From Patescibacteria group bacterium (lineage in GTDB: Bacteria; Patescibacteriota; Patescibacteriia; UBA1558; S5-K13), in contig JAQUXC010000002.1 in the NCBI GenBank assembly GCA_028692545.1, forward strand, positions 28,082 through 92,081: a DNA stretch of 64,000 nucleotides, in the 5' to 3' direction. Numbering within the stretch: the stretch's first letter is position 1; each line of letters starts with the position of its first letter. A program made the translations under genes and the position numbers. This document shows positions 30,942 to 51,123 of this stretch, one piece after another. Below the pieces are notes generated by a model. The model saw only the letters and a list, made by a program, of their open reading frames with translations, made no database searches and was not told the DNA's origin.

Positions 30942-31028
30942 ATTTTTTTGCTTTATTTGAATTAATTATTTAAAAATGTAACTATATTCATTTCTTTAAT
31001 TTAAATATCTATAAACGTCTATATACCC

Positions 31029-31256: not shown

Positions 31257-31267
31257 AATGTTATTAA

Positions 31268-31504: not shown

Positions 31505-31660
31505 ATTAGTCTTTTTCCTTTCATATAATTTTTATTAATATTAATTTTCTATTCTTCTTATGTAGGTATATTGTGAAATTTCACAAAATACAAAAAAATG
31601 GCTTGAAATAGCCATTTTTTTACAATTCTAAGTCTAAAAACTATATGTTTTTTTCACAGA

Positions 31661-32641
31661 TTACACATCATCTACACCTGGTAAATATTGTTTTTTTGTA
31701 TTTTTTGATAAATACCGTTTTTCTATATCTTTAAAACCATATATTTCTCCATTTCCACGTAAACTCTGTTCAGGATATATTTCAAATTTAGTTTCATACC
31801 CCCCACGCTCTTTAGTTGGATAAAATGGATCATCATCTATGGAAAAATAATTTTTTAAAACTTTAGATAATTTTGATTTAATTTGTCTAGTTTTTTCATT
31901 ATAATTTATACCAAAACACTCCTTATTTAAATTAAACTTTCCTTTATTTATAGAAAGCATTTTTAAAAAAAGCCATTGTTTATTTGGTTTTTTACTTTTT
32001 TGATGACATAAACACATTTTTTCAGAATTCGTTTTTTCTAAAAATTTATTTTTTACATATATATTTATATCATCTCCATTTAAAAAATTAATCCTTATAT
32101 CTTCCCATCCAGTACCCTCTGGAAATTTTTTTGATATTTTACAATTTTTTTCAATCTTTCTTGACTTTACAGTAATAAATTTATTTTCTAATTCTTCCTT
32201 ATATTCTATTAATTTTTTTATATTTGGCTTTGTAACTACAAAACACGTATTTCCTACACGTTCTACACTTTCAAAACACCTCTTTTCTTTAAGTTTAATT
32301 AAAAGACTATAACGTTCCACAATAGTCATCAAATTTTCTTCAATACCTAAATCATATGCTTCCATTTCGATTCTTTCTCTCCCTTCACGAGCTATACATT
32401 TTTCAATAATTTTGTCCATCATATAAACAAGTTCGTCTTTGTCACTTTTACTAATACGTTCTATTCTTATTCTTTCACGACTTTCTCGTTTTTTATCATT
32501 CTCTTCCATTCGTTGTTGATATGCACGATTCTCTTGTTCTTCTACGTCTTTAGAGCGAAGAAATTGATTAAATCCCAATTCTTGGAGGGTATGTTTATTA
32601 TTTTGTCCTAAACTATTAGTTAAATTATTATTTTTTTTCAT
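31661..32641 (-). CDS. Hypothetical protein with a charged coiled-coil N-terminus; candidate element replication/regulation protein
   Basis: 326-aa ORF with no recognisable catalytic motif. Confidence 0.5.
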   Translation of the reverse strand: MKKNNNLTNSLGQNNKHTLQELGFNQFLRSKDVEEQENRAYQQRMEENDKKRESRERIRIERISKSDKDELVYMMDKIIEKCIAREGRERIEMEAYDLGIEENLMTIVERYSLLIKLKEKRCFESVERVGNTCFVVTKPNIKKLIEYKEELENKFITVKSRKIEKNCKISKKFPEGTGWEDIRINFLNGDDINIYVKNKFLEKTNSEKMCLCHQKSKKPNKQWLFLKMLSINKGKFNLNKECFGINYNEKTRQIKSKLSKVLKNYFSIDDDPFYPTKERGGYETKFEIYPEQSLRGNGEIYGFKDIEKRYLSKNTKKQYLPGVDDV

Positions 32642-32786
32642 ATAATCTTCATATTAATCTATATTAAACTTAGCTGAAATTGATTTATTTTTCAAGATTT
32701 CAAGTTGATTTTTGTTAACAAAATTAACTTTACCCTCATAAATAAAGGAGGTATAATGGAAATATCTATAATTAAAAAATAAATAT

Positions 32787-34886: not shown

Positions 34887-34903
34887 ATAATAATTTTAAA
34901 TAT

Positions 34904-36388: not shown

Positions 36389-36401
36389 ATATATTAAATA
36401 T

Positions 36402-36641
36402 ATGAACATTAAATTATTTTTTATTTTATTCTCATCAATCTTAATTTTGTCTGGTTGCACAACAAATAGCGCTAGTAATTATGATACAGTGAGTCACCCC
36501 ACCATAGAAGAAAGAGAAAGGGATGATTCCAGATTCGAATTGTGTAGTAAGAAATGTGCTGGACTTGATGCTAAAAATTGTATGAACAGTGCTGGTCAAG
36601 CAAGTTGTCCATATTCTGATTGTCTTGATGAGTGTTTCTAA
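36402..36641 (+). CDS. Small Cys-rich lipoprotein
   Basis: LILSGC lipobox. Start placed at the in-frame MNIKLFF, downstream of the track start at 36375. Confidence 0.5.
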   Translation: MNIKLFFILFSSILILSGCTTNSASNYDTVSHPTIEERERDDSRFELCSKKCAGLDAKNCMNSAGQASCPYSDCLDECF

Positions 36642-36665
36642 AAAAACTTTAAAATTTATAATAAT

Positions 36666-36956
36666 ATGAAGAGGATATTAAAATTCATTAAAAAAGATAT
36701 AAAAAATAATTTACGATTTTATATAGTCGTAATATTTTTAATAATAGGATTTTTGTTATTAAACTCGGCTATAGAAGATTTACAATGGTCCACTAATAAA
36801 ACATATCGTGAGTGTAGAAATGCTCAATCTTATTGTGTTGAAGCTCAATCTAGTTGTTCTGGTTGTGAAGATACTATGTATTATTGTGATGAAGCTCAAT
36901 CTAGTTGTCAAAATGCCGAATCGATGTGTGAGAAATGTGAATATTATAGCTGGTAA
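36666..36956 (+). CDS. Small Cys-rich secreted/membrane protein
   Basis: N-terminal TM, then 12 Cys in the 50 aa CVEAQSSCSGCED...CEKCEYY. Confidence 0.5.
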   Translation: MKRILKFIKKDIKNNLRFYIVVIFLIIGFLLLNSAIEDLQWSTNKTYRECRNAQSYCVEAQSSCSGCEDTMYYCDEAQSSCQNAESMCEKCEYYSW

Positions 36957-36978
36957 ATCTCATATTGATATAAAAGAT

Positions 36979-37356
36979 ATGAAACCAATATTTAAAAAAA
37001 GGATACATCTATTGTTAATACTTATATTTATTATTCCATTTTTAAGTGGATGTGATGAGGTTATGGATAATACAAGTTATCATAATAATTATTCACAGCC
37101 ACCAGCTATAGAAAATATTGTAAAACAAGAACAACCAATAAAAAATGTAATACCAGAAGTTAATACAGAAACTAATAATAATTTATCCAATGATAATCAT
37201 TACACGAATGTAGATGGTAATAAGGTTCATTCACCAGCATATTCTGACACTATTCCAGTTGGTGCATCAGCAAAATGTAGAGATGGGAGCTATAGTTTCA
37301 GCCAACATAGAAGTGGAACTTGTTCTCATCACGGTGGGGTGGCTAAATGGTATTAA
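36979..37356 (+). CDS. Lipoprotein with a DUF3761-like C-terminal motif
   Basis: FLSGC lipobox. C-terminal CRDGSYSFSQHRSGTCSHHGGVAKW resembles the DUF3761 signature. The track ORF 36808-37356 includes an implausible overlapping upstream extension. Confidence 0.55.
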   Translation: MKPIFKKRIHLLLILIFIIPFLSGCDEVMDNTSYHNNYSQPPAIENIVKQEQPIKNVIPEVNTETNNNLSNDNHYTNVDGNKVHSPAYSDTIPVGASAKCRDGSYSFSQHRSGTCSHHGGVAKWY

Positions 37357-37375
37357 TAATTAATATATAAAATAT

Positions 37376-37630
37376 ATGAAAAAAATAATAATTTTAATAA
37401 TAGTGTTATTAATTCTAGGAGTTGCTGGATTTTTCTTTTATGAAAAACAAAAGGAGCGAAAATATGAAAATTGTGTAAGTGTTTGTTGTTCTGGTAGCGA
37501 AGTTTATGAAAATGGAGATTGTTATACTAATATGATTCATAATGCATCTACCGGGGAAATAATTAAAGAATATTCATTAGCGGTCACAGACAAAGAATGT
37601 AAAAATATTTGTATACAAAAATATAAATAA
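37376..37630 (+). CDS. Small membrane-anchored Cys-containing protein
   Basis: N-terminal TM; 84 aa. Confidence 0.45.
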   Translation: MKKIIILIIVLLILGVAGFFFYEKQKERKYENCVSVCCSGSEVYENGDCYTNMIHNASTGEIIKEYSLAVTDKECKNICIQKYK

Positions 37631-37642
37631 TAAATAAACCAT

Positions 37643-38239
37643 ATGTTTTGTCATAGATGCGGAAAAGAGTTATTAGAAAATGCTAAATTTTGTTCTTCCT
37701 GTGGAACAGAGGTTCATCAGATAGACAAATCAAAAAATAACAATCAAACTTCTACTCAACAAAAAGGAGGAAAAATTTCTGGACAAAAAATATTTAAAAT
37801 AATTGTTATAATAATTCTAATTTTAACGTTTATTAGCCCGTCTATATCACAAAAGCAAATTGCTTTATTAGATGGAGTAATTAATATAACTATTTGGGCT
37901 ATTATTTTATATATAATATCACTTTTTATATCTCCACAAACAAAATCTTTGAAAGCAAAAAATAATGAAATAAAGAAAGAAATAGCAAAAGAAGATAAAG
38001 AAATAAAAGAACTAAAAACAAAATTATTAGAAAAAGAAGATTTATTGGCAATATTATATGTATATAGTTTAATTATAATATTTTTTATTATAATAATTTT
38101 ACTTGTATTATTAAATAATTTTAACAGAAATCTTCTTGCAGTAAATATAATTCTTTTAATAATTATCATAATTTTAATGATATTTATTAAAAAAATAAAA
38201 ATAGAGACTAATTTAATTAGACAACAATTAAAAAAATAG
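37643..38239 (+). CDS. Zinc-ribbon membrane protein
   Basis: N-terminal CHRCGKEL...CSSCG zinc ribbon, then TM helices and a charged coiled-coil segment. Confidence 0.55.
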   Translation: MFCHRCGKELLENAKFCSSCGTEVHQIDKSKNNNQTSTQQKGGKISGQKIFKIIVIIILILTFISPSISQKQIALLDGVINITIWAIILYIISLFISPQTKSLKAKNNEIKKEIAKEDKEIKELKTKLLEKEDLLAILYVYSLIIIFFIIIILLVLLNNFNRNLLAVNIILLIIIIILMIFIKKIKIETNLIRQQLKK

Positions 38240-38250
38240 AAGAATAAAGT

Positions 38251-38667
38251 ATGAAAATATTTTCAAAAAAAGAATTTCCTTATATTTTAACATTGTTTAG
38301 CATTTGGATTTTTGCCTTAGCTTACTATTTTCCAAATTTTCCTGCTAACTTTCCAGCTGGTGCTGGAAGAATAAAAATATATAATTATAATACAAATTAT
38401 CTCAAGTTGATATCTGTGATATTATTTACAATAGGATTTTACATATCAATTAGAAGAAGATTATTTCCTAAGACTATAGATGAAATCGCAGAAGAATCAT
38501 ATGAAAAGGCTAAAAAAATTGTTGTAACTTTTAATAAGATATCTGCTACTGCTATACAAAGAGAATTAAAAATTGGTTATGCAGCATCTGCTAGATTATT
38601 AGATATGTTAGAAGATAATGGAATAATCGGACCAGCTAATGGTCCCAGACCAAGAGAAGTTTTATAA
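38251..38667 (+). CDS. Membrane protein with a C-terminal FtsK-gamma (winged-helix DNA-binding) domain
   Basis: ISATAIQRELKIGYAASARLLDMLEDNGIIGPANG matches the FtsK gamma domain consensus. N-terminal TM helices. Confidence 0.65.
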   Translation: MKIFSKKEFPYILTLFSIWIFALAYYFPNFPANFPAGAGRIKIYNYNTNYLKLISVILFTIGFYISIRRRLFPKTIDEIAEESYEKAKKIVVTFNKISATAIQRELKIGYAASARLLDMLEDNGIIGPANGPRPREVL

Positions 38668-38711
38668 ATAATTTGGTAATAATATAAACATAATTATTAT
38701 TTTTAAAAAAT

Positions 38712-39257
38712 ATGGACGAAATAAATAAGTACAAAGACTCTATAGAATATATAGAGAATGAATTTCAAAAAATAATAAAGGAGAATCCATTAAATTTTGA
38801 TAAGGAATATTTATCCCAAATAAGGTTTAAAGTTACTAGTTTTAAAAAAGGTGATGATCAATCTTATGATGTAAATTACGAAATAAAAGGCTTTGACTAT
38901 GGAGATGATTATAGTAATGGTTTAATTTTAAGTTCTAGAGATGGACTTTCAATCGAAGAAGAAATTGCAAAATCAATCTATGACGATATAGTAATGGGTA
39001 CAGACTTAATGAGGAAAGATCCTAAAGTAAGAGAATGCATAGATAGGGCAGAAGAAGAAGCAGAAGAAATACTTGAAAACAAAAAGAAGAAAGATAAAAA
39101 GAAATTTTGGGGTTGGGCTAGACCAGAAATAGGAAAAGGTCATCATTTAGGAGATTGTCATATCTTTTGGGAAGAAAAGAAAAGAATCTTAAAAGAAAAA
39201 TATAATATAGATTGGAAAACTCCTGCGGAGATAAACCCAAGTGCTAAATTTGATTGA
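38712..39257 (+). CDS. Hypothetical charged protein
   Basis: 181-aa ORF. Confidence 0.45.
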   Translation: MDEINKYKDSIEYIENEFQKIIKENPLNFDKEYLSQIRFKVTSFKKGDDQSYDVNYEIKGFDYGDDYSNGLILSSRDGLSIEEEIAKSIYDDIVMGTDLMRKDPKVRECIDRAEEEAEEILENKKKKDKKKFWGWARPEIGKGHHLGDCHIFWEEKKRILKEKYNIDWKTPAEINPSAKFD

Positions 39258-39375
39258 TATAATTAAATCAATCTTATAAACTCATTAAAAAGTGATTTAA
39301 AAAAATAAAGATTCTAATATAAAAATATATGAGAGACAAGATTTTAGATAGAATTAAGAAATCTAATAGGTTTCT

Positions 39376-40530
39376 TTGGCTTGGAAACTATTGTATAATA
39401 TTTATATGGATAAAGTTAAATCAATAAATAAAGAAAATTTAGAAATTGCAAGAAATAATGTCGGTCTGAGTACTATGTCGGCAACAAGAAAAATTTCAAA
39501 ATCAAAAATTGATTTAGTTTTTGAATGGGAAAATGGAACATCACTGCCAACGTGGAATCAAATAACTAGATTAGCAAAAATATATGATATTCCTGAGGTA
39601 CTCTTTTTTTCTAGAGAGTCTATTAAGAAGAACAAAACAATTCCAGACTATAGGATTGGACAAGATTCATATAATGATGAAAAAATACAGAAACTCATTA
39701 ATATTGTTATTAGAAGACAACGATGGTTAAAACAAAATATTAAATATAACCTAAAAAAAAATGTTTTACAGGGTAGTGGTAAAGAGATTCAAAATCCAGA
39801 TCAATTAGCTTTATTAATAAAAGAAAAACTAAATATTGATTCTTATGAAATAAAAAATATTTCTGGAGTAAGCTCTCGCAAAAAAGTATTGGATTATTTA
39901 ATAAGAAAAGCAGAGGATTGTGGAATATTTATTGGAAAAACCATACATTACCATAGAATAAAAGTAGACGATATGAGAGGCCTTTATATTTCTGATGATT
40001 ATTGTCCTTATATTATTCTTAATAGAAGAGATGCTCTTTCTGCACAGATATTTTCGCTTATACACGAGTTAGCTCATTTGTTTAGAAAAACTGACTCAAT
40101 ATCAAATAGCTTAGAGTTTAGACATTTAAATAAAAACATAAACTACGAGGAAATATTTTGTAATAAAGTTGCCGCTGAATTGTTATTGCCTACAAAAGAT
40201 CTTAAAAAAACATTTTATGATATATCCGACATTAATAATATGGCAGAAATTTACAAAGTTAGTAGATTAATGATTTTTTATAGACTTAAAGATCTAAATA
40301 AAATTGATAAAAATGATATAGATAATTTAGAAGAAAAAATACGTAAAGAAACTGATGAAGACGTTATACATAAAAATAATAAAAAAAATACTGGCGGAAG
40401 TTATGTTAATAATATGAGAGATTCAAATGGAAAACTTTTTAATAACATTATTTTAGAACTTTATTTTGATAAAAAAATAAATTACGTAGAGGCATCTAAT
40501 TTACTCAAATTCTCTGTTGAAAGTCTATGA
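39376..40530 (+). CDS. XRE-family HTH fused to an ImmA/IrrE (COG2856) zinc metallopeptidase
   Basis: N-terminal HTH LEIARNNVGLSTMSATRKISKSKIDLVFEWENG and C-terminal HEXXH (HELAHLF). Confidence 0.75.
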   Translation: MAWKLLYNIYMDKVKSINKENLEIARNNVGLSTMSATRKISKSKIDLVFEWENGTSLPTWNQITRLAKIYDIPEVLFFSRESIKKNKTIPDYRIGQDSYNDEKIQKLINIVIRRQRWLKQNIKYNLKKNVLQGSGKEIQNPDQLALLIKEKLNIDSYEIKNISGVSSRKKVLDYLIRKAEDCGIFIGKTIHYHRIKVDDMRGLYISDDYCPYIILNRRDALSAQIFSLIHELAHLFRKTDSISNSLEFRHLNKNINYEEIFCNKVAAELLLPTKDLKKTFYDISDINNMAEIYKVSRLMIFYRLKDLNKIDKNDIDNLEEKIRKETDEDVIHKNNKKNTGGSYVNNMRDSNGKLFNNIILELYFDKKINYVEASNLLKFSVESL

Positions 40531-41015
40531 TAAATAATTTAACAAAAATAAAATACTTAGTTGATACAAATGTTTTAATAGAGCTTTCTCTCTGGAAGCC
40601 TATTGCTCTAAATTTAAACAAAGATTTTTGGTATAGACTCTCAGATGCTTTAAAGAATGATAAATGGGTACTTCTCGATGTTGTCGTTTGGGAGGTGCGT
40701 TATGATAAAGACTTAAAAAAATGGCTCTCTGAACAAAAAAATAAAGGGTTGGTTAAAAAAATTAATGATAATAATAAAAATCGTGCTGTTGAAATCAATA
40801 ATCAATACAAAATAATTGATGACATTACTGGCAAATCAACGGTAGACACTTATTTGTTAGCTTATGCAGAAGCCGAAAATTTAGGTATTTTTTCAAGAGA
40901 AAGCTCTAGAATTAATTCTAATCAATTATACAAAATTCCAGATATATGTAATATTTTAAATATCAATAAAACTAGAAGCCCTAAGGCTTTTTTAAAAGAA
41001 ATAGGATTTAATTAA
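40527..41015 (+). CDS. DUF4411-like PIN-fold protein; candidate toxin partner of the HTH-ImmA protein
   Basis: 4-nt overlap with the upstream gene. N-terminal YLVDTNVLIE acidic PIN-like motif. Size about 160 aa. Confidence 0.5.
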   Translation: MINNLTKIKYLVDTNVLIELSLWKPIALNLNKDFWYRLSDALKNDKWVLLDVVVWEVRYDKDLKKWLSEQKNKGLVKKINDNNKNRAVEINNQYKIIDDITGKSTVDTYLLAYAEAENLGIFSRESSRINSNQLYKIPDICNILNINKTRSPKAFLKEIGFN

Positions 41016-41075
41016 TAAATAGTCATAATTTTTTAGATACATATAAATTCTTTTTCTTTTTTATTGATTTATTTT

Positions 41076-41120
41076 AGCAATTCCCTACAATCACAGTTCT
41101 AACGTCCTCCACTAAGGAGT
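41076..41120 (+). repeat. Copy 1 of a roughly 40-bp repeat, (agcaattccc)tacaatcacagYYctaacRtcc...aaggag
   Basis: Copies 2 and 3 lie at 44171-44208 and 45443-45480. Each precedes a higher-GC gene or region. Confidence 0.6.
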
Positions 41121-41225
41121 ATATAATAGTCTTAAATGACTATTTTTGTTTATTATTATATTTGACATAAACTAAACATTATTGTAATGTGTAAACAAAT
41201 TTAACATTCTAATCATCAGGAGGAA

Positions 41226-42935
41226 ATGATGAAAAAGCTTCTTATTGTGGCCATTTTAATGGCTTTTTGCCTAGTTTTAATAGCACAAGCACCTGATACT
41301 CTTTGGACAAGGACCTTTGGCGGTCCAAACAATGAGTGTATGGAAAATATTAAAGCTACCAGTGATGGGGGTTGCATAATGGTTGGATCAACCAATTCTT
41401 ATAGGAGTGGTGGTCAAGATGCATACATAATCAAAATTGATATTTATGGAAATTTACAATGGAGTAGAACTTTTGGCGGTAGTCAACAAGACATTGCTTA
41501 TTGTGTTGATGAAACACCAACTGGTTATTGCATAACTGGATTTACAAGGTCTTATGATAGTCCAGACAATACCAATCTTTGGCTTTTTAAAGTTGATACA
41601 GCCGGAAGTTATCAATGGATGAGAACTTACGGTGGCAGTCAAGATGATGTCGGCGTATCTTTGCAATATACCACAGACAACGGATATATTATTACTGGTT
41701 ATATTCGTTCAAATAACGAATTATCAGGTGATCCATCCGGCGACATATGGCTTATTAAAACGAACTGGTTTGGTGAAAGAGAATGGCACAGGCGTTTTGT
41801 TTTTGATGATTGTTGGGATGTCGGAAGATCTGTTACTCAAACATCTGACGGAGGCTATGCAATAGCCGGAAAACAAAACAATAAAGCCTGCTTGATTAAA
41901 ACTGATTCTAATGGTTCTTTACAGTGGACAAGAGATTTTCCTGGTTATCCAGATTGCTATTCCATGCAACAGATTTCTGATGGTGGTTATATCTTATGCG
42001 GTGCTACCACTAACATATCTGGCACTTGGGATTTCTATTTACTCAAAACTGACTCAGATGGAAATTTACAATGGAGTAGAAATTTTGGTGGTACTCAAGA
42101 AGATTATGGTCGTTCTGTAGCCCAAACATCAGATGGTGGATATGTAATATTTGGAACGACAAACTCTTTTGGTTTAGGAAATTATGATACTTGGGTAATC
42201 AAAACCGATGCTAATGGAAATGAACAATGGAATAAAACTATTGGCACCACTGGAGATAATCAAGGTTATTCAATAGCACAAACATTGGATGACGGATATG
42301 TAATGGCCGGATATTCAGATGAACAAGCATATGCAATTCGTCTCAGAGGTAGACTCGTATTATTTAATGGAACCCCAACATCTGGATATATTCCACTAAC
42401 GGTTACTTTTTCTGATCAATCAATAATTCAAAATTTAGTAACTTCCTGGCAGTGGACATTTGGTGACGGTCAAACCTCATTAGAACAAAATCCAATCCAT
42501 ACCTATACGCAAGCTGGGCAGTATTCCGTGAAATTAAAAATCATTGATTCGAGCGGTGTTGCTGATTCGCTTATCAAAACCAATTACATCACAGTCCTGG
42601 AAGTGCCACCTGCTCCACCTGAGAACTTAACAATTACAATTTCAGGTCGCAATGCAATTTTGAATTGGGAACCAGTTACTACAACAATCTTCAATAACCC
42701 AATAACTATTACTGGTTACGTAATATACTTCAGTGAAATTCCTGATACAAACTTTTGGTATCTCGGATGCACCGAAGCCATAACCTACACACATTATCGC
42801 GTGACTCAATATGCCAGCGGTATGTTCTACAGAGTTGTTGCTGTCACAGATGATTGGAATCGAATAAGAAGCATAACACAAAGAAATCCTCATATTCAAC
42901 TTGGGCAACTAAATGCCTTGTTGAAAAAAGAGTGA
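41226..42935 (+). CDS. Secreted beta-propeller-repeat (SBBP-like) protein with a PKD domain and a C-terminal Ig/FN3-like region
   Basis: Signal peptide. At least eight repeats of TFGG(S/T)QxDxG.S...DGGY...G.T.S. PKD motif WQWTFGDGQTS...HTY. Strong AGGAGG RBS. GC is visibly higher than in the neighbours. Confidence 0.75.
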   Translation: MMKKLLIVAILMAFCLVLIAQAPDTLWTRTFGGPNNECMENIKATSDGGCIMVGSTNSYRSGGQDAYIIKIDIYGNLQWSRTFGGSQQDIAYCVDETPTGYCITGFTRSYDSPDNTNLWLFKVDTAGSYQWMRTYGGSQDDVGVSLQYTTDNGYIITGYIRSNNELSGDPSGDIWLIKTNWFGEREWHRRFVFDDCWDVGRSVTQTSDGGYAIAGKQNNKACLIKTDSNGSLQWTRDFPGYPDCYSMQQISDGGYILCGATTNISGTWDFYLLKTDSDGNLQWSRNFGGTQEDYGRSVAQTSDGGYVIFGTTNSFGLGNYDTWVIKTDANGNEQWNKTIGTTGDNQGYSIAQTLDDGYVMAGYSDEQAYAIRLRGRLVLFNGTPTSGYIPLTVTFSDQSIIQNLVTSWQWTFGDGQTSLEQNPIHTYTQAGQYSVKLKIIDSSGVADSLIKTNYITVLEVPPAPPENLTITISGRNAILNWEPVTTTIFNNPITITGYVIYFSEIPDTNFWYLGCTEAITYTHYRVTQYASGMFYRVVAVTDDWNRIRSITQRNPHIQLGQLNALLKKE

Positions 42936-43174
42936 TAAACAATTTCAAAATCAATAAAAGAAGCCTTGGGATAATATCTCGAGGCTTCTCTATTTTTTTG
43001 CATTTCTACCAATATTGTTGTGGCCATATTGTGGCCATATTGTGTCCAAGAAATGATTATATGTAATGAAGTTAATAGGAATTGATGGCATTTGATAATC
43101 AATATTATTCAGTATTAATGGGCTTTTATTCACTTTACTCAATGTTTATCAAATGTTTGTAAAAACTGCTTTCT

Positions 43175-43203
43175 CGGGTCCGATTCCCGTTACTCGCTCC
43201 ATT
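43175..43203 (+). repeat. attR: a 29-bp direct repeat of the tRNA-Gly 3' end
   Basis: Identical to 28716-28744. Confidence 0.8.
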
Positions 43204-45086: not shown

Positions 45087-45665
45087 TAGAATATATTAGG
45101 CTCTGTGCAACGATAGCACAGAGCCTTTTAATTATACGTTAAAAATCAAAAATTTTACCTATAAAAATAATATATTTTATAAAAATCATTTTGGAATAAA
45201 AATATTATTAAAATTATGGCACCAAAAGATGAATTTGATAAGAAAAAACCACTAAAAAATTCTCCTAATTTTTTATCATATATTTGGATATATAAGTTTG
45301 GGAATAGCCATTTATTTTATTCTTTGTTTTGTATTGCATTGATGCTGGACAAGCTTGATAGTGTTATAGTGAAGTAGTAATTTTACTATCAATAAAAGGT
45401 GACTTTAAAGTCTTCCCCTTTTCTCTTTTTGATAAAATTTTCTAGCAATTCCCTACAATCACAGTCCTAACGTCCATAACCAATGAGCTCAATCGAGCTT
45501 AACTCGACCAACAAAAAAATCCATTTTTATAGGCTTCATATCCGGTCGTATAACTGGATTTTTGTTATACCACTAAATTAAAATGTATGAGATTTAACAT
45601 CTTTACAACCAAAACCACTATTAACATGATGTTGATGGTGATTTATTCGCGAACTCGTTTTATAC

Positions 45666-45851
45666 TTAAGCGCTATGCTTGGTATTTATAGAAAGTTGCA
45701 AGCACATTCCCATGATCGCGATAAACATCATTATTGTTGCACCAGACCAATCATTGGCGCCATTACCGCGATAGACAATAGCATACAAAATCATCAATAT
45801 TCCAACGATGAAAGTTAGTATAGAACTTACTGACGAAGAATTCATTGCCAT
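45666..45851 (-). CDS. Small two-TM membrane protein, hypothetical
   Basis: 61-aa ORF with elevated GC. Confidence 0.3.
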   Translation of the reverse strand: MAMNSSSVSSILTFIVGILMILYAIVYRGNGANDWSGATIMMFIAIMGMCLQLSINTKHSA

Positions 45852-45975
45852 ATATTTATTAGTTATAATTTAGTTTTGATATATAAATTGTTAATTATTC
45901 AAAAAATTTTTGTTTATCTAAAGTAAAAAATTAAACTTGTTTGTACAAATTTAAAAGAGTTTAAAAGGTTCTTTA

Positions 45976-46122
45976 TTAAACCCTTTTTCCCTTTATTAAT
46001 CTTACCAAAATCATAATAACCGCTATTACTAAAAGAGCGTGGATAAATCCACCAAGAGTATAAGATGTTACTAGACCTACAAGCCAAAGAACAATGAAAA
46101 TAATTGCAATTGTTGTTAACAT
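45976..46122 (-). CDS. lmo0937-family-like small membrane protein (48 aa); below the ORF-track cutoff
   Basis: Manual translation gives MLTTIAIIFIVLWLVGLVTSYTLGGFIHALLVIAVIMILVRLIKGKRV. The architecture resembles the lmo0937 small-protein family. Confidence 0.45.
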   Translation of the reverse strand: MLTTIAIIFIVLWLVGLVTSYTLGGFIHALLVIAVIMILVRLIKGKRV

Positions 46123-46324
46123 AAGCGTTTTTATTTATTATTTATTAGTTATATTAACCATAGCACCATTTGGATTATTAAGATATAGAAGTTAAATTGA
46201 ATTGTTTTTGTTTTTTTTAAAGCCTTTTAATAGGCTTTTTTGTTATATTGAAAAATAAATCAAACTAAAATATATTAAAAGATTCAAAAAAGGAGCTTAT
46301 TAGCTCCTTTTTTATAATATTCTA

Positions 46325-47338
46325 CTATTTATTAAACAAACTTTTTGCCAAATCCCAATATTCTGGATTTCCATTCAATTTTTGTAAATACCACCACTCT
46401 ACACCCCACAAATAACACTGATTGAGGTCTGAATCAATTGCATATTGAAGATTTGCTTCAAATTGTTTTAGATCAAAAGATTTATTTGATTCATCTGGTT
46501 TCAAATCTTTAAGCGTTCCCTTTGGAACCCATGGCTCTGCTTGAAGCTCACTTATTATCATATTATCAGAACGCAATTTCAAAAAACTTGCCTTGAATTT
46601 ATAAAACCAAGCTGGAATTGGATACCTAAAATACCCAAAAATAGGATTCCATACCACACGATACATTGTAGTACCAAATTTGTCTCCAATATCCCACTCT
46701 CTTCTCCATGAAGAAAGTTCTCCTGATGCAGTTATAAGAATTGGTCTTTTGTCTAATTCTTTTACTAATTTTACCTCTCTTCCTAGAAATGCTTCATCAC
46801 CATCTGGACATATTCCAAAAGTATTTAAAAGTGGTTCATTTTCTACCTGCCACATTATTATTTCATCTCTATCTCTATATTTAGAAACTACATGATCAAT
46901 CATGATAAGTGTTTGATCTTTTATATTTGAAACTCCCATAGAAAAAGTCCAACTTGGTGCATGACACTCTGGCCATCTTGGAAGACGCCAACCAATATTT
47001 GCAACAAATTTTACTCCTCTTTTTTTACCTTCATTAAACATATAATCATAATCACTAAAATCATATTTCCCCTTTTCAAATTCTATATCATCCCAATAGA
47101 TAGGAATTCTCACATATTTTACTTTCAAATCATCAAGCATAGAAATATAAACTTCTTTCCAATCAAGACCTATTTCACCACAAAGTTTTTTGGAAAACGT
47201 TACTGCCCAATAATTTTCTTTTGTATTATGAAGATTAATTTTGCCAGGATAATGCTTTGCAAATTTTAAATACCACAAAAGAAATATTATTAAAAATATT
47301 AATAGAATATATATAATCATTTTTTTGTTTAATTTCAT
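46325..47338 (-). CDS. Membrane-anchored clan GH-A (GH5-like) glycoside hydrolase
   Basis: N-terminal TM. The WQVENEP motif carries the acid/base Glu of the NEP signature, and Trp-rich barrel motifs are present. Confidence 0.6.
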   Translation of the reverse strand: MKLNKKMIIYILLIFLIIFLLWYLKFAKHYPGKINLHNTKENYWAVTFSKKLCGEIGLDWKEVYISMLDDLKVKYVRIPIYWDDIEFEKGKYDFSDYDYMFNEGKKRGVKFVANIGWRLPRWPECHAPSWTFSMGVSNIKDQTLIMIDHVVSKYRDRDEIIMWQVENEPLLNTFGICPDGDEAFLGREVKLVKELDKRPILITASGELSSWRREWDIGDKFGTTMYRVVWNPIFGYFRYPIPAWFYKFKASFLKLRSDNMIISELQAEPWVPKGTLKDLKPDESNKSFDLKQFEANLQYAIDSDLNQCYLWGVEWWYLQKLNGNPEYWDLAKSLFNK

Positions 47339-47353
47339 ATTAATAATAAAAAA

Positions 47354-48286
47354 TTATGATATAAGATATAAACCAATAGCAATTATAAATATTGATATTG
47401 CTTTTTGAATAATTATTGATTTTGATATATCTTCTTTTATAGCTTTTGGCCTTAACATTGTAATTACAGCTCCAAGAATTAAAAGAAATGCATACTGTAC
47501 ACCCTGTAATGCATTTACAAAAACCACAGACCCGAGTGCAATTGCATAATTTTGTAAAAAAGAGCCTACAGCTGCGAGACCTTGATTTCCAAAAAACAAA
47601 AACTTATTTTTTGTTTTCTTTAATAATTTTATGCTCTTAAATATTCCTTCTCTATCTTTTTTATCAACAAGTAAAAATAGTACCATAATAAAACTTCCCA
47701 ATCTTATCCAAATAAAACCACTCATAAATGGCTGAATATTGTACATATATTTTGTACCAATAAAAAACAAAGAAAAAAATAATGCTGCCAGAATTGCAAC
47801 AATTATTCCTTTTGTATCATCATCATCTGTATCACCAAACCACATTGCAAATTTATGCCATATAGTTTTTTTATTTGGAATCCAAGAAATAATCAAAGTA
47901 CCAATAAGAAGTAATATTATACCAATCCATTCGCGAACACTAAATTTTTCATTAAAAAATGAAATTGAAAAAAATATTGTAAATATTGGAATAGAACCAC
48001 CAATAAGAGTAATAACTTTTGAAGTATCACCATCTTTTAATGCCTTATACATCAAAAGTAATGCCAAAGGAAACATGGCTCCAATAATAATATTTAAAAG
48101 AAATGTCACAATTCCAGGCCAAATAAGATAAAAAGGAGCAAGGACAAAAACAATCATTCCAAGACATCCCACAAAAAACGTATAAGCTTTACTATTAGGA
48201 ACTACATTTCCTAAAATAAACTTATCTCCAATGTTTACAAAAGCCATTATCAAATAAGCTATAATTGCTATTAAAAACCAAGACAT
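47354..48286 (-). CDS. EamA/DMT-family-like 10-TM transporter
   Basis: 310 aa in two roughly 5-TM halves. Confidence 0.45.
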   Translation of the reverse strand: MSWFLIAIIAYLIMAFVNIGDKFILGNVVPNSKAYTFFVGCLGMIVFVLAPFYLIWPGIVTFLLNIIIGAMFPLALLLMYKALKDGDTSKVITLIGGSIPIFTIFFSISFFNEKFSVREWIGIILLLIGTLIISWIPNKKTIWHKFAMWFGDTDDDDTKGIIVAILAALFFSLFFIGTKYMYNIQPFMSGFIWIRLGSFIMVLFLLVDKKDREGIFKSIKLLKKTKNKFLFFGNQGLAAVGSFLQNYAIALGSVVFVNALQGVQYAFLLILGAVITMLRPKAIKEDISKSIIIQKAISIFIIAIGLYLIS

Positions 48287-48313
48287 ATTTTTTCTTATTA
48301 TTTATTAAAATTA

Positions 48314-49645
48314 TTACAAACTATTAATTATTTCTTTTAAATTTTTCATTTTTAGAGAATTAAAATCTTCTTCTGTAATAGAAGACGATGCATACAAAGC
48401 ATTTTCTGATTTACTATCATATTTCTGATATTTTCTTGGATAATTTGCTTCCAAGTCACCATTTGGCAATACAAAAATTCTATATTTTTTTAATTCTTTT
48501 ATAAAATTATCACCTGATACATTTTTCAATTTCAAATCAATACGATTTAGTAAGTCTCTCAAATAATTACCTTGTAACATATCTCTATCAAAAATCATAA
48601 CATAAGGAATATCAAAAATATTCAAAACTTCAGCATACACAACAGCATTTCCTTTTCCATATGTTTGAATTACTTTTATATCTTTTTCACCCATATAAAA
48701 ATTATTTATCAAAGATGTAAACAACAACTTGTCTGATACACCTTCTACAAGTACAACTTCATCAGAGAAAAACATTTCTAAATTATCCGCATTTAATTCT
48801 TTTATTAGTCTATCTAAATTATAATTTTTGTTTTTTATTGTAAGAACACTTGTAATATTTTCTTTTTTCACAACTTTTATAAGTTGAGGTAAGGAAACTG
48901 GAGTTATAAATAAAGGAGAATGTGTAGTAAATAAAATTTGACCAGAATTGCTATTTTGCATTGCCCACAACAATTTTCTTATCATAGCAGGATGCAAATG
49001 ATTTTCTGGTTCATCTATCATTATAATATTATATTCTGGATGATAAATATATAAAAGTATAGTAAATACCCTACTAAAACCACTTCCAAGCCAATCAATG
49101 GTAGCATCTCTATCCCCTTCTTTTATACCTTTGTGTTCATAATTTATATCCAATGCATTTTTTGTAGTAGATATTTTTGGAAAGTGCTTTTTTAAATTAT
49201 ACTGAAACTCATAAAAATTTTGTTTGTATTTAAAAATATTTTTAAAATCTTCATTTATACAATCAAGATCCAAAAATACATTTTCATTTAATCTTTTTAT
49301 TTTTGAAGATAGATAATTAGATATTTTTTCATCATATTCAATGTCTTTTTTTTTAAATGACAATATTCTTTTTTGATTTTTTAAAATCAGATTTGCCCTA
49401 TCACTTGGAAATAAAAATTCTTTCACCTCAAATTCTGTAAATTCAATATTTAAAATAATATTTGATTTATCATAAAATAGAGATGTATTATCTTTTGTTG
49501 GGTCAATACAAAGCTCTATTGCATCTAAAATATTTGATTTACCAGAGTTATTTTGTCCAATAAAAGTATTCATCAAATTCAAATCCAAATCTATAGGATT
49601 TTTTATACTTTTATAAAGATTAATTTTTATTTTATCTAAAAACAT
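48314..49645 (-). CDS. OLD-family ATPase-Toprim nuclease (class 1, stand-alone)
   Basis: Walker A GQNNSGKSN, ABC-type IMIDEPENHLHP and a C-terminal Toprim VLVEGVSDKLLF. There is no adjacent UvrD/helicase gene. Confidence 0.75.
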   Translation of the reverse strand: MFLDKIKINLYKSIKNPIDLDLNLMNTFIGQNNSGKSNILDAIELCIDPTKDNTSLFYDKSNIILNIEFTEFEVKEFLFPSDRANLILKNQKRILSFKKKDIEYDEKISNYLSSKIKRLNENVFLDLDCINEDFKNIFKYKQNFYEFQYNLKKHFPKISTTKNALDINYEHKGIKEGDRDATIDWLGSGFSRVFTILLYIYHPEYNIIMIDEPENHLHPAMIRKLLWAMQNSNSGQILFTTHSPLFITPVSLPQLIKVVKKENITSVLTIKNKNYNLDRLIKELNADNLEMFFSDEVVLVEGVSDKLLFTSLINNFYMGEKDIKVIQTYGKGNAVVYAEVLNIFDIPYVMIFDRDMLQGNYLRDLLNRIDLKLKNVSGDNFIKELKKYRIFVLPNGDLEANYPRKYQKYDSKSENALYASSSITEEDFNSLKMKNLKEIINSL

Positions 49646-49647
49646 AT

Positions 49648-50985
49648 TTATAACAAATTTACATCATCAATCTCATCTATTTTATTGTTTAACACAATAT
49701 TTTCTATATGATACGTACCCAGCTTTGGTGCATTCATAAATCCCTCCATAGCTGCCTCAGCCATCCAACCAGAATCAATCCAATCAAAAAGCCACTCATT
49801 TACATATTTTGGATTTTTACTATCAACCCCTGCACCAATAGAAAGTAACCATCTTCTATTATAATTTTCTTGGGATCCAAGTGGTTCAGACATTATAATT
49901 GGAATTCCAAGTCCCGCATAAAAACTAAGCTCAGATGGTTTTGTCCATAATATATCTGTGGTTTTCAATTGTTCATTAAACATTTTGAAATATGTCATCT
50001 TGTCCTCTGAATATAAAATTTTTACATTTTTGGAATTATCTATCTTATTATTCTTCAAATATTTTTCATAGTACAAATAAACATCATTTCTATTACCAGC
50101 AACTAATATAAGTCTAAGCTTTCCTTTTTTGATATGATCTCTTAGGCTTTCCAAAATTGTAACTCCTAAATCACGCTGAGCACCAGCACCACCAACAGCA
50201 AACATTATTGTAAGTGGATGTGCATTTTTCTTTATTTGAGAAACTGGACACAGATATCCTTCTATAAATTTTGCATACTTTTTTCTATATATTCCCTTTG
50301 GATCCAAATTATATATTCTTGATTTCAAACTATTCTTTAATATATTCATATTCACTCCACCAATATTTTCTTTTGGCAAAGGAAAACCTGTCAAGAATAT
50401 ATTTTTTGAATTTACTCCATAAAGCATCAGCCTTTCTTTTACTCTTTTATTTGGGACTAAATATTTTATTCTACTTGTTTTTGGGTGATACGGAGCCCAA
50501 GCACGAGCAATATCTGCATCACAAACTATACAATATATTTCACCTTTATATCCATAATATTCTGCAAAATATGCTGGTACAAAAAAAGTAGTTACAAAGG
50601 GAAGCGGATTTTTATTTAATTCATCTATTAATTTTTTGCCAAGACCGTGTTTAACTTGATTGAAAAAATATTTTTGTTGATAAGAATTATTTGACAAATC
50701 TCTTTTTGGGTAATATGGATCTATTTTTTGCATATCATCCATTATGCCAAAAGCCAAATTTCCTAAAATTGGAAAATTCTTATACATTGATATTATTTCA
50801 TACCATTTTCTTCCACCTTGCCAAGATTTTTTTTCTTTTTTACTAATCCCTTGATAACTATTTGCATTTATTATTCCACCTTCAGAAACAGAAACAAATG
50901 GATAAGCAGCGCGCTGATGACCATATCCCATATCTACAGCTACTACATACATTTTGCTGTTTTTTAAAGATTTTTTATCCTTCAT
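49648..50985 (-). CDS. GT-B glycosyltransferase (MGDG-synthase/UgtP/MurG-like)
   Basis: N-terminal VVAVDMGYGHQRAA (G-x-GH motif) and a second-domain FAVGGAGAQ. Confidence 0.5.
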   Translation of the reverse strand: MKDKKSLKNSKMYVVAVDMGYGHQRAAYPFVSVSEGGIINANSYQGISKKEKKSWQGGRKWYEIISMYKNFPILGNLAFGIMDDMQKIDPYYPKRDLSNNSYQQKYFFNQVKHGLGKKLIDELNKNPLPFVTTFFVPAYFAEYYGYKGEIYCIVCDADIARAWAPYHPKTSRIKYLVPNKRVKERLMLYGVNSKNIFLTGFPLPKENIGGVNMNILKNSLKSRIYNLDPKGIYRKKYAKFIEGYLCPVSQIKKNAHPLTIMFAVGGAGAQRDLGVTILESLRDHIKKGKLRLILVAGNRNDVYLYYEKYLKNNKIDNSKNVKILYSEDKMTYFKMFNEQLKTTDILWTKPSELSFYAGLGIPIIMSEPLGSQENYNRRWLLSIGAGVDSKNPKYVNEWLFDWIDSGWMAEAAMEGFMNAPKLGTYHIENIVLNNKIDEIDDVNLL

Positions 50986-51123
50986 TTTATTATAAATATT
51001 AATTTGTTTAATTTAATTATAACATAAAAATTATATTAAAAAACCAATATTGACATATCGTTTTTGATATGATAATATTTAGATAGTTATCTAAATATCT
51101 AAATACAATTTAAAAATAATTAT

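What the first reader, a model, noticed from the sequence alone, without database searches (positions are those of the whole stretch)
46325..50985. OLD-family ATPase-Toprim nuclease embedded in a glycosyltransferase / EamA transporter / GH5 operon
Seen in sequence: four minus-strand genes sit with 2-28 nt spacers. They are a GT-B glycosyltransferase, a 443-aa protein with Walker A GQNNSGKSN, IMIDEPENHLHP and Toprim VLVEGVSDKLLF, a 10-TM transporter and a GH5-like hydrolase. Established knowledge: OLD (overcoming lysogenization defect) proteins, including Gabija GajA relatives, are anti-phage nucleases. Class 1 OLDs are stand-alone, as here; there is no UvrD partner. The sugar-metabolism operon context is atypical. 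It may reflect insertion of a defence gene into a resident operon, or a non-defence role.
Basis: partly seen in the sequence, partly recalled or inferred. Interest (0 to 1): 0.55.

Follow-up and report, generated by a model that had tools for sequence, protein, structure and literature searches.

The report
OLD nuclease fixed in sugar operon
A DNA-cutting enzyme of the OLD family, usually a mobile anti-virus gene, was inserted long ago into a cell-envelope sugar operon of one group of ultra-small Patescibacteria and has been passed down like a core gene ever since, so it may be a permanent defence or have been re-used for a housekeeping job.

Summary
Four minus-strand genes (GT-B-fold DUF6938 protein, 443-aa OLD-family ATPase-Toprim, EamA transporter, clan GH-A hydrolase) lie 2, 27 and 15 nt apart, with a strong terminator-like hairpin after the last gene.

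The OLD call holds on Pfam, PADLOC, sequence and fold matches to Thermus OLD 6P74, and intact ATPase and two-metal Toprim residues in 120 homologs.

Comparative synteny gives the new result. GT-(EamA)-GH is a widespread Patescibacteria cassette. The OLD gene sits between GT and EamA only in one Komeilibacteria-like clade. There it was present in every locus with enough DNA and co-diverges with its neighbours (r 0.84-0.88). So it is an ancient, fixed insertion, not a variable defence gene.

The protein belongs to the uncharacterised CPR/DPANN clade "U2" of Yang et al. 2025, not to canonical class 1. Other U2 members lie in unrelated contexts, so a functional link to sugar metabolism is unlikely.

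Most likely it is an ATP-gated DNA nickase/nuclease co-transcribed as a passenger. Whether it serves constitutive defence or a domesticated, Cran1-like role stays open. Moderate interest; new variant of a known kind.

The parts
49648..50985 (-). First gene: GT-B-fold UDP-sugar enzyme, Pfam DUF6938 (445-aa ORF; likely true start Met12 at 50952)
   Evidence: DUF6938 9e-16, diglucosyl-DAG synthase 8e-10; 7819 homologs among 8000 scored candidates; every source name shown among the 120 listed is 'hypothetical protein'. AF2 model pLDDT 87.9 matches UDP-GlcNAc 2-epimerases, MGD1 and WaaG.
48314..49645 (-). OLD-family (clade U2) ABC-ATPase + Toprim nuclease, 443 aa
49532..49558 (-). Walker A / P-loop GQNNSGKSN (residues 30-38)
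   Evidence: G30, N32, G35 and K36 are invariant in 120 homologs.
48989..49024 (-). Walker B and D-loop IMIDEPENHLHP (residues 208-219)
   Evidence: E212-P213-E214, H218 and P219 are invariant. D211 varies (D 62, N 34, S 21, G 2 of 120 homologs shown). Aligns to the EEPE..LHP motif of TsOLD.
48722..48757 (-). Toprim motif VLVEGVSDKLLF (residues 297-308): E301 as metal A ligand, D305 as metal B ligand
   Evidence: Aligned to TsOLD LLVEGYGD, i.e. E377/D381. E301, G302, S304 and D305 are invariant.
48581..48589 (-). Toprim DxD (D353-R-D355), metal A ligands
   Evidence: Aligned to TsOLD D431/D433; invariant in 120 homologs.
48431..48457 (-). D397-L-E399 ... R404-K405: inferred second metal-B pair and transition-state basic residue
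   Evidence: E399 is invariant; D397 is D in 89 of 120; positions 404/405 are R or K in 105 and 112 of 120. Spacing from the DxD matches TsOLD S478/E480/R487 and P2 D541/E543/K550. The assignment rests on spacing, not on a superposition.
47354..48286 (-). EamA/DMT-family transporter, 310 aa
   Evidence: EamA 3.6e-14, two stretches. Found directly after OLD, or directly after GT in OLD-less lineages.
46325..47338 (-). Membrane-anchored clan GH-A (TIM-barrel) glycoside hydrolase-like protein, 337 aa
   Evidence: GH42 2.5e-6, GH5 0.003, GH10 0.008. GH35 1.4e-7; orthologs 55-61% identical with E166-N167-E168-P169 invariant.
46285..46314 (-). Terminator-like hairpin ending the four-gene unit
   Evidence: 13-bp stem, 4-nt loop, T-run, 11 nt after the GH stop.
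50986..51123 (.). 138-nt divergent intergenic region between the GT and the arsR-like gene; presumed promoter region of the operon
   Evidence: Promoter-like matches are not above the shuffle expectation, so the promoter role is inferred from position only.

Best explanation
The 443-aa protein is a catalytically intact, single-gene OLD-family enzyme of the CPR/DPANN clade U2. It has an ABC-type ATPase head that binds (and in this copy probably hydrolyses) ATP, and this controls a C-terminal two-metal Toprim nuclease that nicks or cleaves DNA. Its gene was inserted between the GT and the EamA gene of a pre-existing Patescibacteria envelope-sugar cassette (GT-EamA-GH) in the ancestor of a Komeilibacteria-like clade. 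Since then it has been inherited vertically, co-transcribed with the cassette, and kept under purifying selection. It is a fixed passenger of the operon, not a component of sugar metabolism. Its most likely job is DNA-directed: constitutively expressed innate protection against phage or foreign DNA in a lineage with few other defences. Shown: family membership, motif integrity, operon structure, insertion polarity, clade-wide retention, co-divergence. Inferred: nuclease and ATPase activity, co-transcription, independence from the sugar genes, and the defence role.
For: Family and chemistry: Pfam AAA_21/AAA_15/OLD-like_TOPRIM and PADLOC Old 1.7e-39. Best solved relatives are TsOLD 6P74 (phmmer 1.5e-13; Foldseek 1.9e-18 on a pLDDT 85.9 model), then GajA and retron-Eco8 OLD. 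Walker A, signature-like GSGF, EPE-HLHP, H-loop, E301/D305/D353/D355/E399 and basic 404/405 are conserved in 120 homologs and map onto the TsOLD catalytic residues. Operon: spacers of 2/27/15 nt and a terminator only after GH. In relatives the GT stop and OLD start often overlap. Insertion into a resident cassette: GT-EamA-GH or GT-GH without OLD in other Patescibacteria. Fixation: the OLD-bearing loci form one clade on the GT tree with no OLD-less member. 29 of 31 informative OLD-anchored metagenome loci have EamA downstream, and GT is upstream wherever there is enough upstream DNA. Pairwise identities of OLD correlate with GT, EamA and GH at r = 0.84-0.88, Mantel p = 0.001. Mean identity is 0.56 for OLD against 0.54 for EamA and 0.59 for GH. 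Independence from sugar genes: other U2 members sit next to MetRS/GT2/MnmA, DSP phosphatases, RND efflux genes, dnaK/dnaJ or an IS transposase, and the cassette exists without OLD in most lineages sampled. Defence lean: every characterised bacterial OLD class is a defence nuclease, and one U2 member lies beside a DDE transposase.
Against: Clade-wide, apparently loss-free vertical retention at a neighbour-like evolutionary rate is atypical of defence genes, which usually turn over quickly. The same pattern led Yang et al. to find a non-defence, essential OLD (Cran1) in Sulfolobales. No U2-type relative was found in IMG/VR (best 26% identity, partial), in phage records (P2 Old 24.8%) or in plasmids (about 25%). 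No defence genes adjoin the operon, and it lies outside the nearby tRNA-Gly integrated element. No activity, expression or phenotype data exist for any U2 member. A second lineage (L085/L175-L177) also has OLD between GT and EamA although its GT is distant. This means either an older insertion with several losses or a repeated insertion at the same junction; the latter would hint at selection for this position.
Confidence: 0.5

Rival explanations
1. Domesticated housekeeping OLD. Like archaeal Cran1 (class 5), this U2 enzyme has been recruited for an endogenous DNA transaction, such as relaxing or nicking the chromosome during replication or segregation, processing DNA taken up by the competence/pilus machinery, or nucleotide salvage. 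That would explain why it is kept in every member of the clade.
For: One clade with no observed loss; co-divergence with neighbours at r = 0.84-0.88; evolutionary rate like EamA and GH. Hard-wired into a conserved operon with overlapping stop/start codons. Absent from viral, phage and plasmid collections. Other U2 members are embedded in housekeeping strings, e.g. grpE-dnaK-OLD-dnaJ in a nanoarchaeote and MetRS-OLD-...-AlaRS. There is a precedent: vertically inherited OLD clade U11 (Cran1) is essential and not defensive.
Against: Sister Patescibacteria lineages do without it in the same cassette, so it is not universally needed. U2 contexts differ between lineages and one is next to a transposase, as expected for a gene that moves. 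In streamlined genomes with high coding density almost any gene lies in a same-strand string of housekeeping genes. No essentiality or expression data exist.
Confidence: 0.3
2. Functional partner of the sugar module. The ATPase-Toprim protein works with GT, EamA and GH, for example by coupling envelope-glycan or UDP-sugar status to DNA processing, or by acting on a non-DNA phosphodiester substrate.
For: Strictly conserved position between GT and EamA in more than 55 loci, with frequent translational-coupling-type overlaps. A second, distant lineage has OLD at the same junction. There is a faint PADLOC HEC-01B hit on the GT (E = 0.0098) alongside HEC-01A hits on OLD.
Against: GT-EamA-GH and GT-GH exist without OLD in most sampled lineages, and U2 OLDs exist without the cassette elsewhere. 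All catalytic residues are those of a DNA nuclease. The OLD|EamA and GT|OLD junctions tolerate inserts of 0.15-2 kb, including a CAP-domain gene, which breaks any tight coupling. The HEC-01B hit is at chance level.
Confidence: 0.08
3. Recent, mobile defence-gene insertion (a defence-island-like cargo gene) that is variably present among close relatives.
For: OLD genes are typically mobile defence genes. An integrase-bearing element lies nearby in the window.
Against: No close relative lacks it. It co-diverges with its neighbours down to about 50% identity. GC content and skew match the flanking genes. The integrated element ends at 43203, 3.1 kb before the operon.
Confidence: 0.03
4. Not an OLD protein: a RecF/SbcC/SMC-like housekeeping ATPase without a Toprim domain.
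For: Weak N-terminal SMC_N and RecF hits, as expected for any ABC-type ATPase head.
Against: OLD-like_TOPRIM 7.7e-15; full-length fold match to OLD structures; invariant E/DxD/E Toprim residues.
Confidence: 0.01

Closest known systems
Clade U2 of OLD-family proteins (uncharacterised; Yang et al. 2025, EMBO Rep, PMC12796447, Dataset EV1)
   Same: BLASTP to U2 members from Parcubacteria, Patescibacteria and Kerfeldbacteria gives 31-35% identity over about 360-400 residues, E 1e-53 to 1e-66. A U2 nanoarchaeote gives 4.5e-25. U3 and U4 give only 1e-10 to 1e-13. Several U2 entries are the same proteins as my top 50%-cluster representatives (P0128, P0132, P0138, P0143). Same host range: CPR bacteria and DPANN archaea.
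   Different: U2 was only delineated on a tree; no function or gene context was described. The window's sub-branch is distinguished by its fixed position in the GT-EamA-GH cassette.
Class 1 OLD nucleases (P2 Old; Thermus scotoductus OLD, PDB 6P74; V. cholerae class 1 OLD; E. coli YbjD)
   Same: Single gene with no helicase, RT or split-Toprim partner. ABC ATPase plus Toprim with the same metal A/B ligands. TsOLD is the best solved match by both sequence and fold.
   Different: 443 aa against 525-586 aa. About 61 of the missing residues lie between Walker A and the signature motif, where TsOLD carries its four-helix dimerisation domain. Groups with U2 rather than class 1. Vertically fixed in an operon rather than sporadic: class 1 is reported in 0.45% of bacterial genomes (quoted in the paper read).
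Cran1 / class 5 OLD (Sulfolobales clade U11)
   Same: OLD clade restricted to one taxon, vertically inherited, with intact ATPase and nickase motifs. This is the pattern that flagged Cran1 as non-defensive.
   Different: Different clade (U2 versus U11) and domain of life. No essentiality, cell-cycle or chromatin data here. Sister lineages lack the gene.
Gabija GajA (class 2), retron-Eco8 OLD (class 3), PARIS AriA/AriB (class 4)
   Same: Shared ATPase-Toprim fold (Foldseek 6e-16 to 1e-14) and PADLOC GajA/AriA cross-hits.
   Different: No GajB helicase, no reverse transcriptase or msr-msd RNA, and the Toprim is fused rather than a separate AriB.

Membership tests
OLD family (ATPase-Toprim nucleases) | N-terminal ABC-type ATPase with Walker A, signature-like motif, Walker B/EPE-HLHP and H-loop | tested here: met
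   AAA_21 7.5e-25, AAA_15 7.6e-20. G30/N32/G35/K36, G187/G189/F190, E212-P-E214, H218-P219 and T241-H242 are conserved in at least 98% of 120 homologs.
OLD family (ATPase-Toprim nucleases) | C-terminal Toprim domain with metal A (E, DxD) and metal B ligands and a basic transition-state residue | tested here: met
   OLD-like_TOPRIM 7.7e-15. E301/D305/D353/D355 align to TsOLD E377/D381/D431/D433. E399 is invariant and positions 404/405 are R or K. The assignment of D397/E399/R404-K405 is by spacing only.
OLD family (ATPase-Toprim nucleases) | Overall fold like solved OLD proteins | tested here: met
   AF2 model pLDDT 85.9, pTM 0.83. Foldseek top hits: 6P74 at 1.9e-18, then GajA and retron-Eco8 OLD.
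OLD family (ATPase-Toprim nucleases) | Metal-dependent DNA nicking/cleavage and ATP binding or hydrolysis | not testable with these tools
   Requires biochemistry.
Class 1 OLD | Stand-alone gene: no adjacent UvrD-like helicase, RT or separate Toprim gene, and not next to other defence genes | tested here: met
   The neighbours are GT, EamA, GH, ArsR, SdpI, TauE and PilB-like. No PADLOC hits on the neighbours.
Class 1 OLD | Groups with class 1 sequences (P2 Old, TsOLD) | tested here: not met
   Closest to clade U2 (1e-53 to 1e-66), against TsOLD 1.5e-13 and P2 Old 2e-8. Only 32 of the 50%-cluster representatives score below 1e-30, all short-type or fragments; canonical 530-690-aa OLD/GajA proteins score about 1e-20. 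No formal tree was built here.
Class 1 OLD | Four-helix dimerisation domain inserted in the ATPase domain | tested here: inconclusive
   The model shows a shorter helical insert (helices 121-154) followed by a low-confidence loop at 159-168. The N-terminal part up to the signature motif is about 61 aa shorter than in TsOLD. The oligomeric state is unknown.
Class 2 OLD (Gabija GajA) | [quoted passage not shown] | tested here: not met
   The downstream gene is an EamA transporter, and the same holds in more than 55 related loci.
Class 3 OLD (retron) | Adjacent reverse transcriptase and msr-msd ncRNA | tested here: not met
   No RT domain in the neighbours. Rfam finds only two tRNAs in the window.
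Class 4 OLD (PARIS AriA/AriB) | ATPase and Toprim encoded as separate genes | tested here: not met
   Both domains lie in one 443-aa ORF.
Class 5 OLD (Cran1, clade U11) | Member of the Sulfolobales clade U11; essential, cell-cycle regulated | not tested
   No Cran1 sequence was compared directly. In Yang et al.'s dataset the CPR sequences closest to this protein are labelled U2, not U11. Essentiality cannot be tested here. The shared property is vertical inheritance.
Clade U2 (Yang et al. 2025) | Closest relatives are the CPR/DPANN sequences labelled U2 | tested here: met
   (BLASTP against truncated U2, U3 and U4 sequences from Dataset EV1).
Mobile defence-island cargo | Patchy presence among close relatives; MGE hallmarks at the flanks | tested here: not met
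   Present in every locus of the clade with enough DNA. Outside the tRNA-Gly element, whose 29-nt direct repeats lie at 28716 and 43175.

The most novel reading that the evidence does not exclude
The U2 OLD of this Patescibacteria clade is a bacterial counterpart of archaeal Cran1. On this reading, an ancestrally defensive ATPase-nickase has been domesticated for an endogenous DNA transaction (chromosome relaxation or segregation, or processing of imported DNA for recombination or nucleotide salvage in an organism that cannot make nucleotides). Its expression is hard-wired to a constitutive envelope-glycan operon. More broadly, U2 would then be a CPR/DPANN-specific housekeeping OLD lineage.
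Probability: 0.3. Interest if true: 0.7.

Novelty: new variant of a known kind. Interest (0 to 1): 0.45.

Why it matters
OLD nucleases are treated as mobile anti-phage genes, and only one non-defence example is known (archaeal Cran1, 2025). Here a bacterial OLD lineage behaves like a core gene. It shows a single ancient insertion, no loss detected in about 60 loci, and co-divergence with neighbours at a neighbour-like rate. This occurs in ultra-small Patescibacteria, which on my own knowledge carry few known defence systems.

If it is defence, it is an example of a defence gene becoming a fixed, constitutively co-transcribed part of a core operon. If it is not, it extends OLD domestication to bacteria.

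Either way it gives the uncharacterised U2 clade a defined, compact (443-aa) and well-conserved representative with clear mutational targets. It also documents a widespread, unannotated Patescibacteria cassette (DUF6938 GT-B enzyme, EamA, GH-A hydrolase).

Tried and rejected
1. A recent mobile insertion was rejected on synteny, co-divergence and composition.

2. I tested whether the nearby integrase could explain the gene. The 29-nt tRNA-Gly direct repeats bound an element at 28716-43203 that excludes the operon.

3. I looked for a small partner gene or RNA in the variable OLD|EamA gaps of relatives. They hold no credible ORFs and no Rfam family. The GC-rich inserts fold better than shuffles on both strands, but six copies give no common structure. 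The window has no such insert.

4. I searched IMG/VR, phage and plasmid collections for U2-type OLDs and found only distant OLD or ABC-ATPase hits.

5. Literature searches for DUF6938, for OLD with Patescibacteria/CPR, and for the cassette found nothing describing this arrangement.

6. The promoter scan is uninformative in this AT-rich DNA: 45 hits against 40.5 expected.

7. The faint PADLOC HEC-01B hit on the GT (E = 0.0098) was judged to be chance.

8. I asked whether operon embedding is universal in U2. It is not: one member lies beside a DDE transposase.


Full report
**1. The observation**

The window is AT-rich (about 27% GC). The OLD-like protein is identical to a protein annotated in a "Patescibacteria group bacterium" MAG (P0001).

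The four minus-strand ORFs exist as described:

| Gene | Coordinates | Length |
|---|---|---|
| GT | 49648-50985 | 445 aa |
| OLD-like | 48314-49645 | 443 aa |
| EamA | 47354-48286 | 310 aa |
| GH-like | 46325-47338 | 337 aa |

The spacers are 2, 27 and 15 nt. A 13-bp-stem hairpin with a T-run lies 11 nt after the GH stop, and there is no comparable signal between the genes. Together with a 138-nt divergent region upstream of the GT, this reads as one transcription unit. The promoter scan itself is uninformative in this composition (45 hits found, 40.5 expected).

**2. What the four proteins are**

The 443-aa protein matches AAA_21 (7.5e-25), AAA_15 (7.6e-20) and OLD-like_TOPRIM (7.7e-15) in Pfam. 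In PADLOC it matches the Old model (1.7e-39), followed by many GajA, AriA and ATPase-Toprim models.

The best solved relative by sequence is the class 1 OLD of Thermus scotoductus (6P74, 1.5e-13). An AlphaFold model built on 35 homologs is confident (pLDDT 85.9, pTM 0.83). Its top Foldseek hits are 6P74 (1.9e-18), then GajA and retron-Eco8 OLD.

In 120 homologs the following are at least 98% conserved:
- Walker A: G30, N32, G35, K36
- Signature-like motif: G187, G189, F190
- E212-P-E214, H218-P219 and the H-loop T241-H242
- Toprim residues E301, G302, S304, D305, D353, D355 and E399

The phmmer alignment puts E301/D305 on TsOLD E377/D381 and D353/D355 on D431/D433. These are the metal A and metal B ligands defined by Schiltz et al. 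2020. D397-x-E399 and R404/K405 have the spacing of TsOLD S478/E480/R487 and P2 D541/E543/K550; that assignment is an inference from spacing.

The protein is about 85 aa shorter than TsOLD. About 61 of the missing residues lie before the signature motif, where TsOLD carries its four-helix dimerisation domain.

The other three proteins:
- **GT.** It is a DUF6938 protein with weak MGDG-synthase and diglucosyl-DAG-synthase similarity. Its model (pLDDT 87.9) matches GT-B-fold UDP-sugar enzymes: UDP-GlcNAc 2-epimerases, MGD1 and WaaG.
- **Transporter.** It is a two-domain EamA protein.
- **Hydrolase.** It is resolved only to clan GH-A. GH42 is above the Pfam cut-off, while GH5, GH10 and GH35 are weaker. 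A conserved NEP motif is present.

**3. Comparative genomics, the decisive part**

*OLD-anchored.* The protein has more than 120 90%-clusters of homologs. They are 422-462 aa long, 46-58% identical (one at 86%), and every organism name attached to them is from Patescibacteria. Four such loci on long contigs all show DUF6938-OLD-EamA-GH in the same order.

*GT-anchored.* A scan of GTDB species representatives with the GT alignment found 234 genomes, of which the best 80 were kept. I called ORFs in each and compared them with the window's four proteins.
- Every locus whose GT is about 61-72% identical, and which has enough downstream DNA, has GT-OLD-EamA-GH.
- More distant lineages (records named Magasanikbacteria, Falkowbacteria, Staskawiczbacteria, Nealsonbacteria and others) have GT-EamA-GH, GT-GH or GT alone, and no OLD.
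- On a neighbour-joining GT tree the OLD-bearing loci form a single clade with no OLD-less member. Its sister group has GT-EamA-GH.
- One GT at 64% identity stands alone in another context (L173), while another at 64% has the full cassette (L174). So clade, not identity, is what matters.

*Co-divergence.* Across 27 complete cassettes, pairwise identities of OLD correlate with those of GT, EamA and GH (Pearson 0.88, 0.84 and 0.88; Mantel p = 0.001). This is as strong as the correlations among the three neighbours (0.82-0.84). Mean identity is 0.56 for OLD, 0.54 for EamA, 0.59 for GH and 0.71 for GT.

*Metagenome scan.* A scan anchored on the most distant cassette-linked OLD (P0121) returned 33 loci. 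EamA lies downstream in 29 of the 31 that are informative. The other two have only about 630-650 nt of downstream DNA. GT is upstream wherever there is enough upstream DNA.

*Conclusion.* The ancestral unit is GT-(EamA)-GH. The OLD gene entered between GT and EamA and has since been inherited vertically without detected loss.

*Complication.* A second lineage (L085/L175, and probably L176/L177) has GT-CAP-OLD-EamA-GH, yet its GT branches elsewhere. Either the insertion is older and was lost several times, or the junction was hit twice. I could not resolve this.

**4. Place in the OLD family**

Against 1.84 billion cluster representatives, only 32 score below 1e-30. They are mostly 420-530 aa long or fragments. 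Canonical 530-690-aa OLD and GajA proteins score about 1e-20.

Yang et al. 2025 (PMC12796447) described eleven uncharacterised OLD clades. Their clade U2 contains Kerfeldbacteria, Parcubacteria and Patescibacteria together with DPANN archaea.

The window protein hits the bacterial U2 sequences at 1e-53 to 1e-66 and a U2 nanoarchaeote at 4.5e-25. It hits U3 and U4 at only 1e-10 to 1e-13. Several U2 entries are identical to my representatives P0128, P0132, P0138 and P0143.

So it is class-1-like by gene context, but by sequence it is a member of U2.

**5. Is the sugar context functional?**

U2 members outside the cassette-bearing clade sit in unrelated places:
- After a DSP phosphatase and a sigma70-DUF8128-TraG-like string (L087)
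- Near RND efflux genes (L089)
- After a DSP phosphatase and a small ORF (L090)
- Between MetRS and a GT2, followed by MnmA and AlaRS (L091)
- Between dnaK and dnaJ in a nanoarchaeote (L092)
- Beside a DDE transposase (L208)

The cassette works without OLD in most lineages. Within the OLD-bearing clade, the junctions tolerate inserts: 150 bp to 2 kb at OLD|EamA, up to about 565 bp at GT|OLD, and a CAP-domain gene in L085. This argues that OLD is a co-transcribed passenger and not a partner of the sugar enzymes.

**6. Defence or not?**

*For defence.* All characterised bacterial OLD classes are defence nucleases. U2 contexts change between lineages, and one is next to a transposase.

*Against a typical defence gene.*
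- Retention is clade-wide and apparently loss-free.
- The evolutionary rate is like that of the neighbours.
- No MGE or defence neighbours are present.
- The operon lies outside the integrated element bounded by 29-nt tRNA-Gly repeats at 28716 and 43175.
- U2 relatives are absent from IMG/VR, phage and plasmid collections, with the caveat that CPR mobile elements are poorly sampled.

This is the same pattern of atypical conservation and vertical inheritance that led Yang et al. to show that Cran1 is essential and not defensive.

My probabilities: 0.5 for a fixed, constitutively expressed DNA-targeting defence nuclease; 0.3 for a domesticated role; under 0.1 for functional coupling to the sugar genes.

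**7. Novelty**

No paper in the searchable library describes DUF6938, this cassette, or an OLD gene fixed in a Patescibacteria operon. The family and the U2 clade are known. The compact architecture, operon fixation and vertical inheritance in bacteria are new. I rate it a new variant of a known kind, of moderate interest.

**Caveats**
- Record titles of many MAGs are unreliable; several are labelled "Gammaproteobacteria".
- Only the best 80 of 234 GT loci were examined.
- The GT tree is a quick NJ tree.
- No formal OLD phylogeny or species-tree reconciliation was done.
- All functional statements are inferences from sequence.

Noticed in passing
L009 10665-11161; L010 10686-11182; L012 and L019 10651-11149; L013 10652-11081; L024 10666-11107; L003 8339-9291; L174 7673-9225: The OLD|EamA junction of several related loci carries non-coding inserts of 430-1550 bp. 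Most are relatively GC-rich (0.41-0.50 against 0.34-0.40 for the locus; L013 is barely above its locus). They have no credible ORFs and no Rfam match. The L009 copy folds better than shuffles on both strands (z = -3.75 and -5.10), but six copies share no consensus structure. The conserved ends look like a minus-strand terminator hairpin and a promoter-like box upstream of EamA. The window lacks the insert (27-nt spacer).
   Followed up: partly
window 28716-43203: An integrated element of about 14.5 kb. A 29-nt exact direct repeat of the tRNA-Gly(gcc) 3' end lies at 28716-28744 and again at 43175-43203, with a tyrosine integrase at 28774-29853 just inside. Cargo includes a trypsin-like peptidase, a cEGF-repeat protein, a PKD-domain protein and the M78/DUF4411 pair. 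It ends 3.1 kb before the OLD operon.
   Followed up: partly
window 39376-41015 (+): A two-gene pair overlapping by 4 nt: an HTH + Peptidase_M78 (ImmA/IrrE) protein with PADLOC RmrA/CapP-like hits (about 1e-14), and a DUF4411/PIN-like protein (2.6e-16). It looks like a regulator-nuclease or toxin-antitoxin-like module, and it lies inside the integrated element.
   Followed up: partly
window 19956-23093 (+): A 1045-aa ValRS-like class I aminoacyl-tRNA synthetase with a complete histidine-phosphatase domain (His_Phos_1, 4.3e-43) at residues 442-630, inside the synthetase near where the editing domain normally lies. This is an unusual domain insertion.
   Followed up: no
window 25275-27893 (+): An 872-aa SMC_N/AAA_23 ATPase with a strong PADLOC mad3 (MADS system) hit of 1.7e-55. 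It could be a short SMC/RecN-type protein or part of a defence system. Its neighbours were not examined.
   Followed up: no
window 49013-49015 (residue D211 of the OLD protein) and 120 homologs: The Walker B aspartate position is D in 62, N in 34, S in 21 and G in 2 family members, while the following E212-P-E214 is invariant. About half of the family may bind ATP rather than hydrolyse it efficiently, as reported for GajA.
   Followed up: partly
L092 4064-8709; L091 4328-8284; L087 5468-7332; L090 4670-7446; L208 2806-6346: Other U2 OLD genes lie in varied contexts: between dnaK and dnaJ in a nanoarchaeote; between MetRS and a GT2 in another Patescibacteria lineage; just downstream of a DSP-type phosphatase in two lineages (directly in L087, one small ORF away in L090); and beside a DDE transposase in a further U2 member.
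   Followed up: partly
L085 and L175 4579-5865: A 428-aa CAP-domain (PF00188) gene sits between GT and OLD in a second, distant lineage that also has OLD-EamA-GH. This points to either an older OLD insertion with later losses or a repeated use of the same junction.
   Followed up: partly
L203 1-1089: The OLD reading frame is split into two ORFs on a 1.7-kb metagenome contig. It may be a rare pseudogene or an assembly or frameshift error.
   Followed up: no
window 45087-46324: A 1.2-kb stretch downstream of the operon has no ORF of 100 aa or more. It holds small hydrophobic ORFs (48 aa at 45976-46122 and 61 aa at 45666-45851, both minus strand) that look like small membrane proteins.
   Followed up: no
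L005 3210-3316; L027 684-786; L174 402-500: SAM riboswitches (S-box; 62-70 bits). In L174 the riboswitch lies just upstream of the metK gene (558-1565) a few kb upstream of the cassette; the downstream gene was not checked in L005 and L027. Several other related loci carry metK upstream of the cassette. The window has a different upstream neighbourhood (ArsR/SdpI, pilB-like).
   Followed up: no
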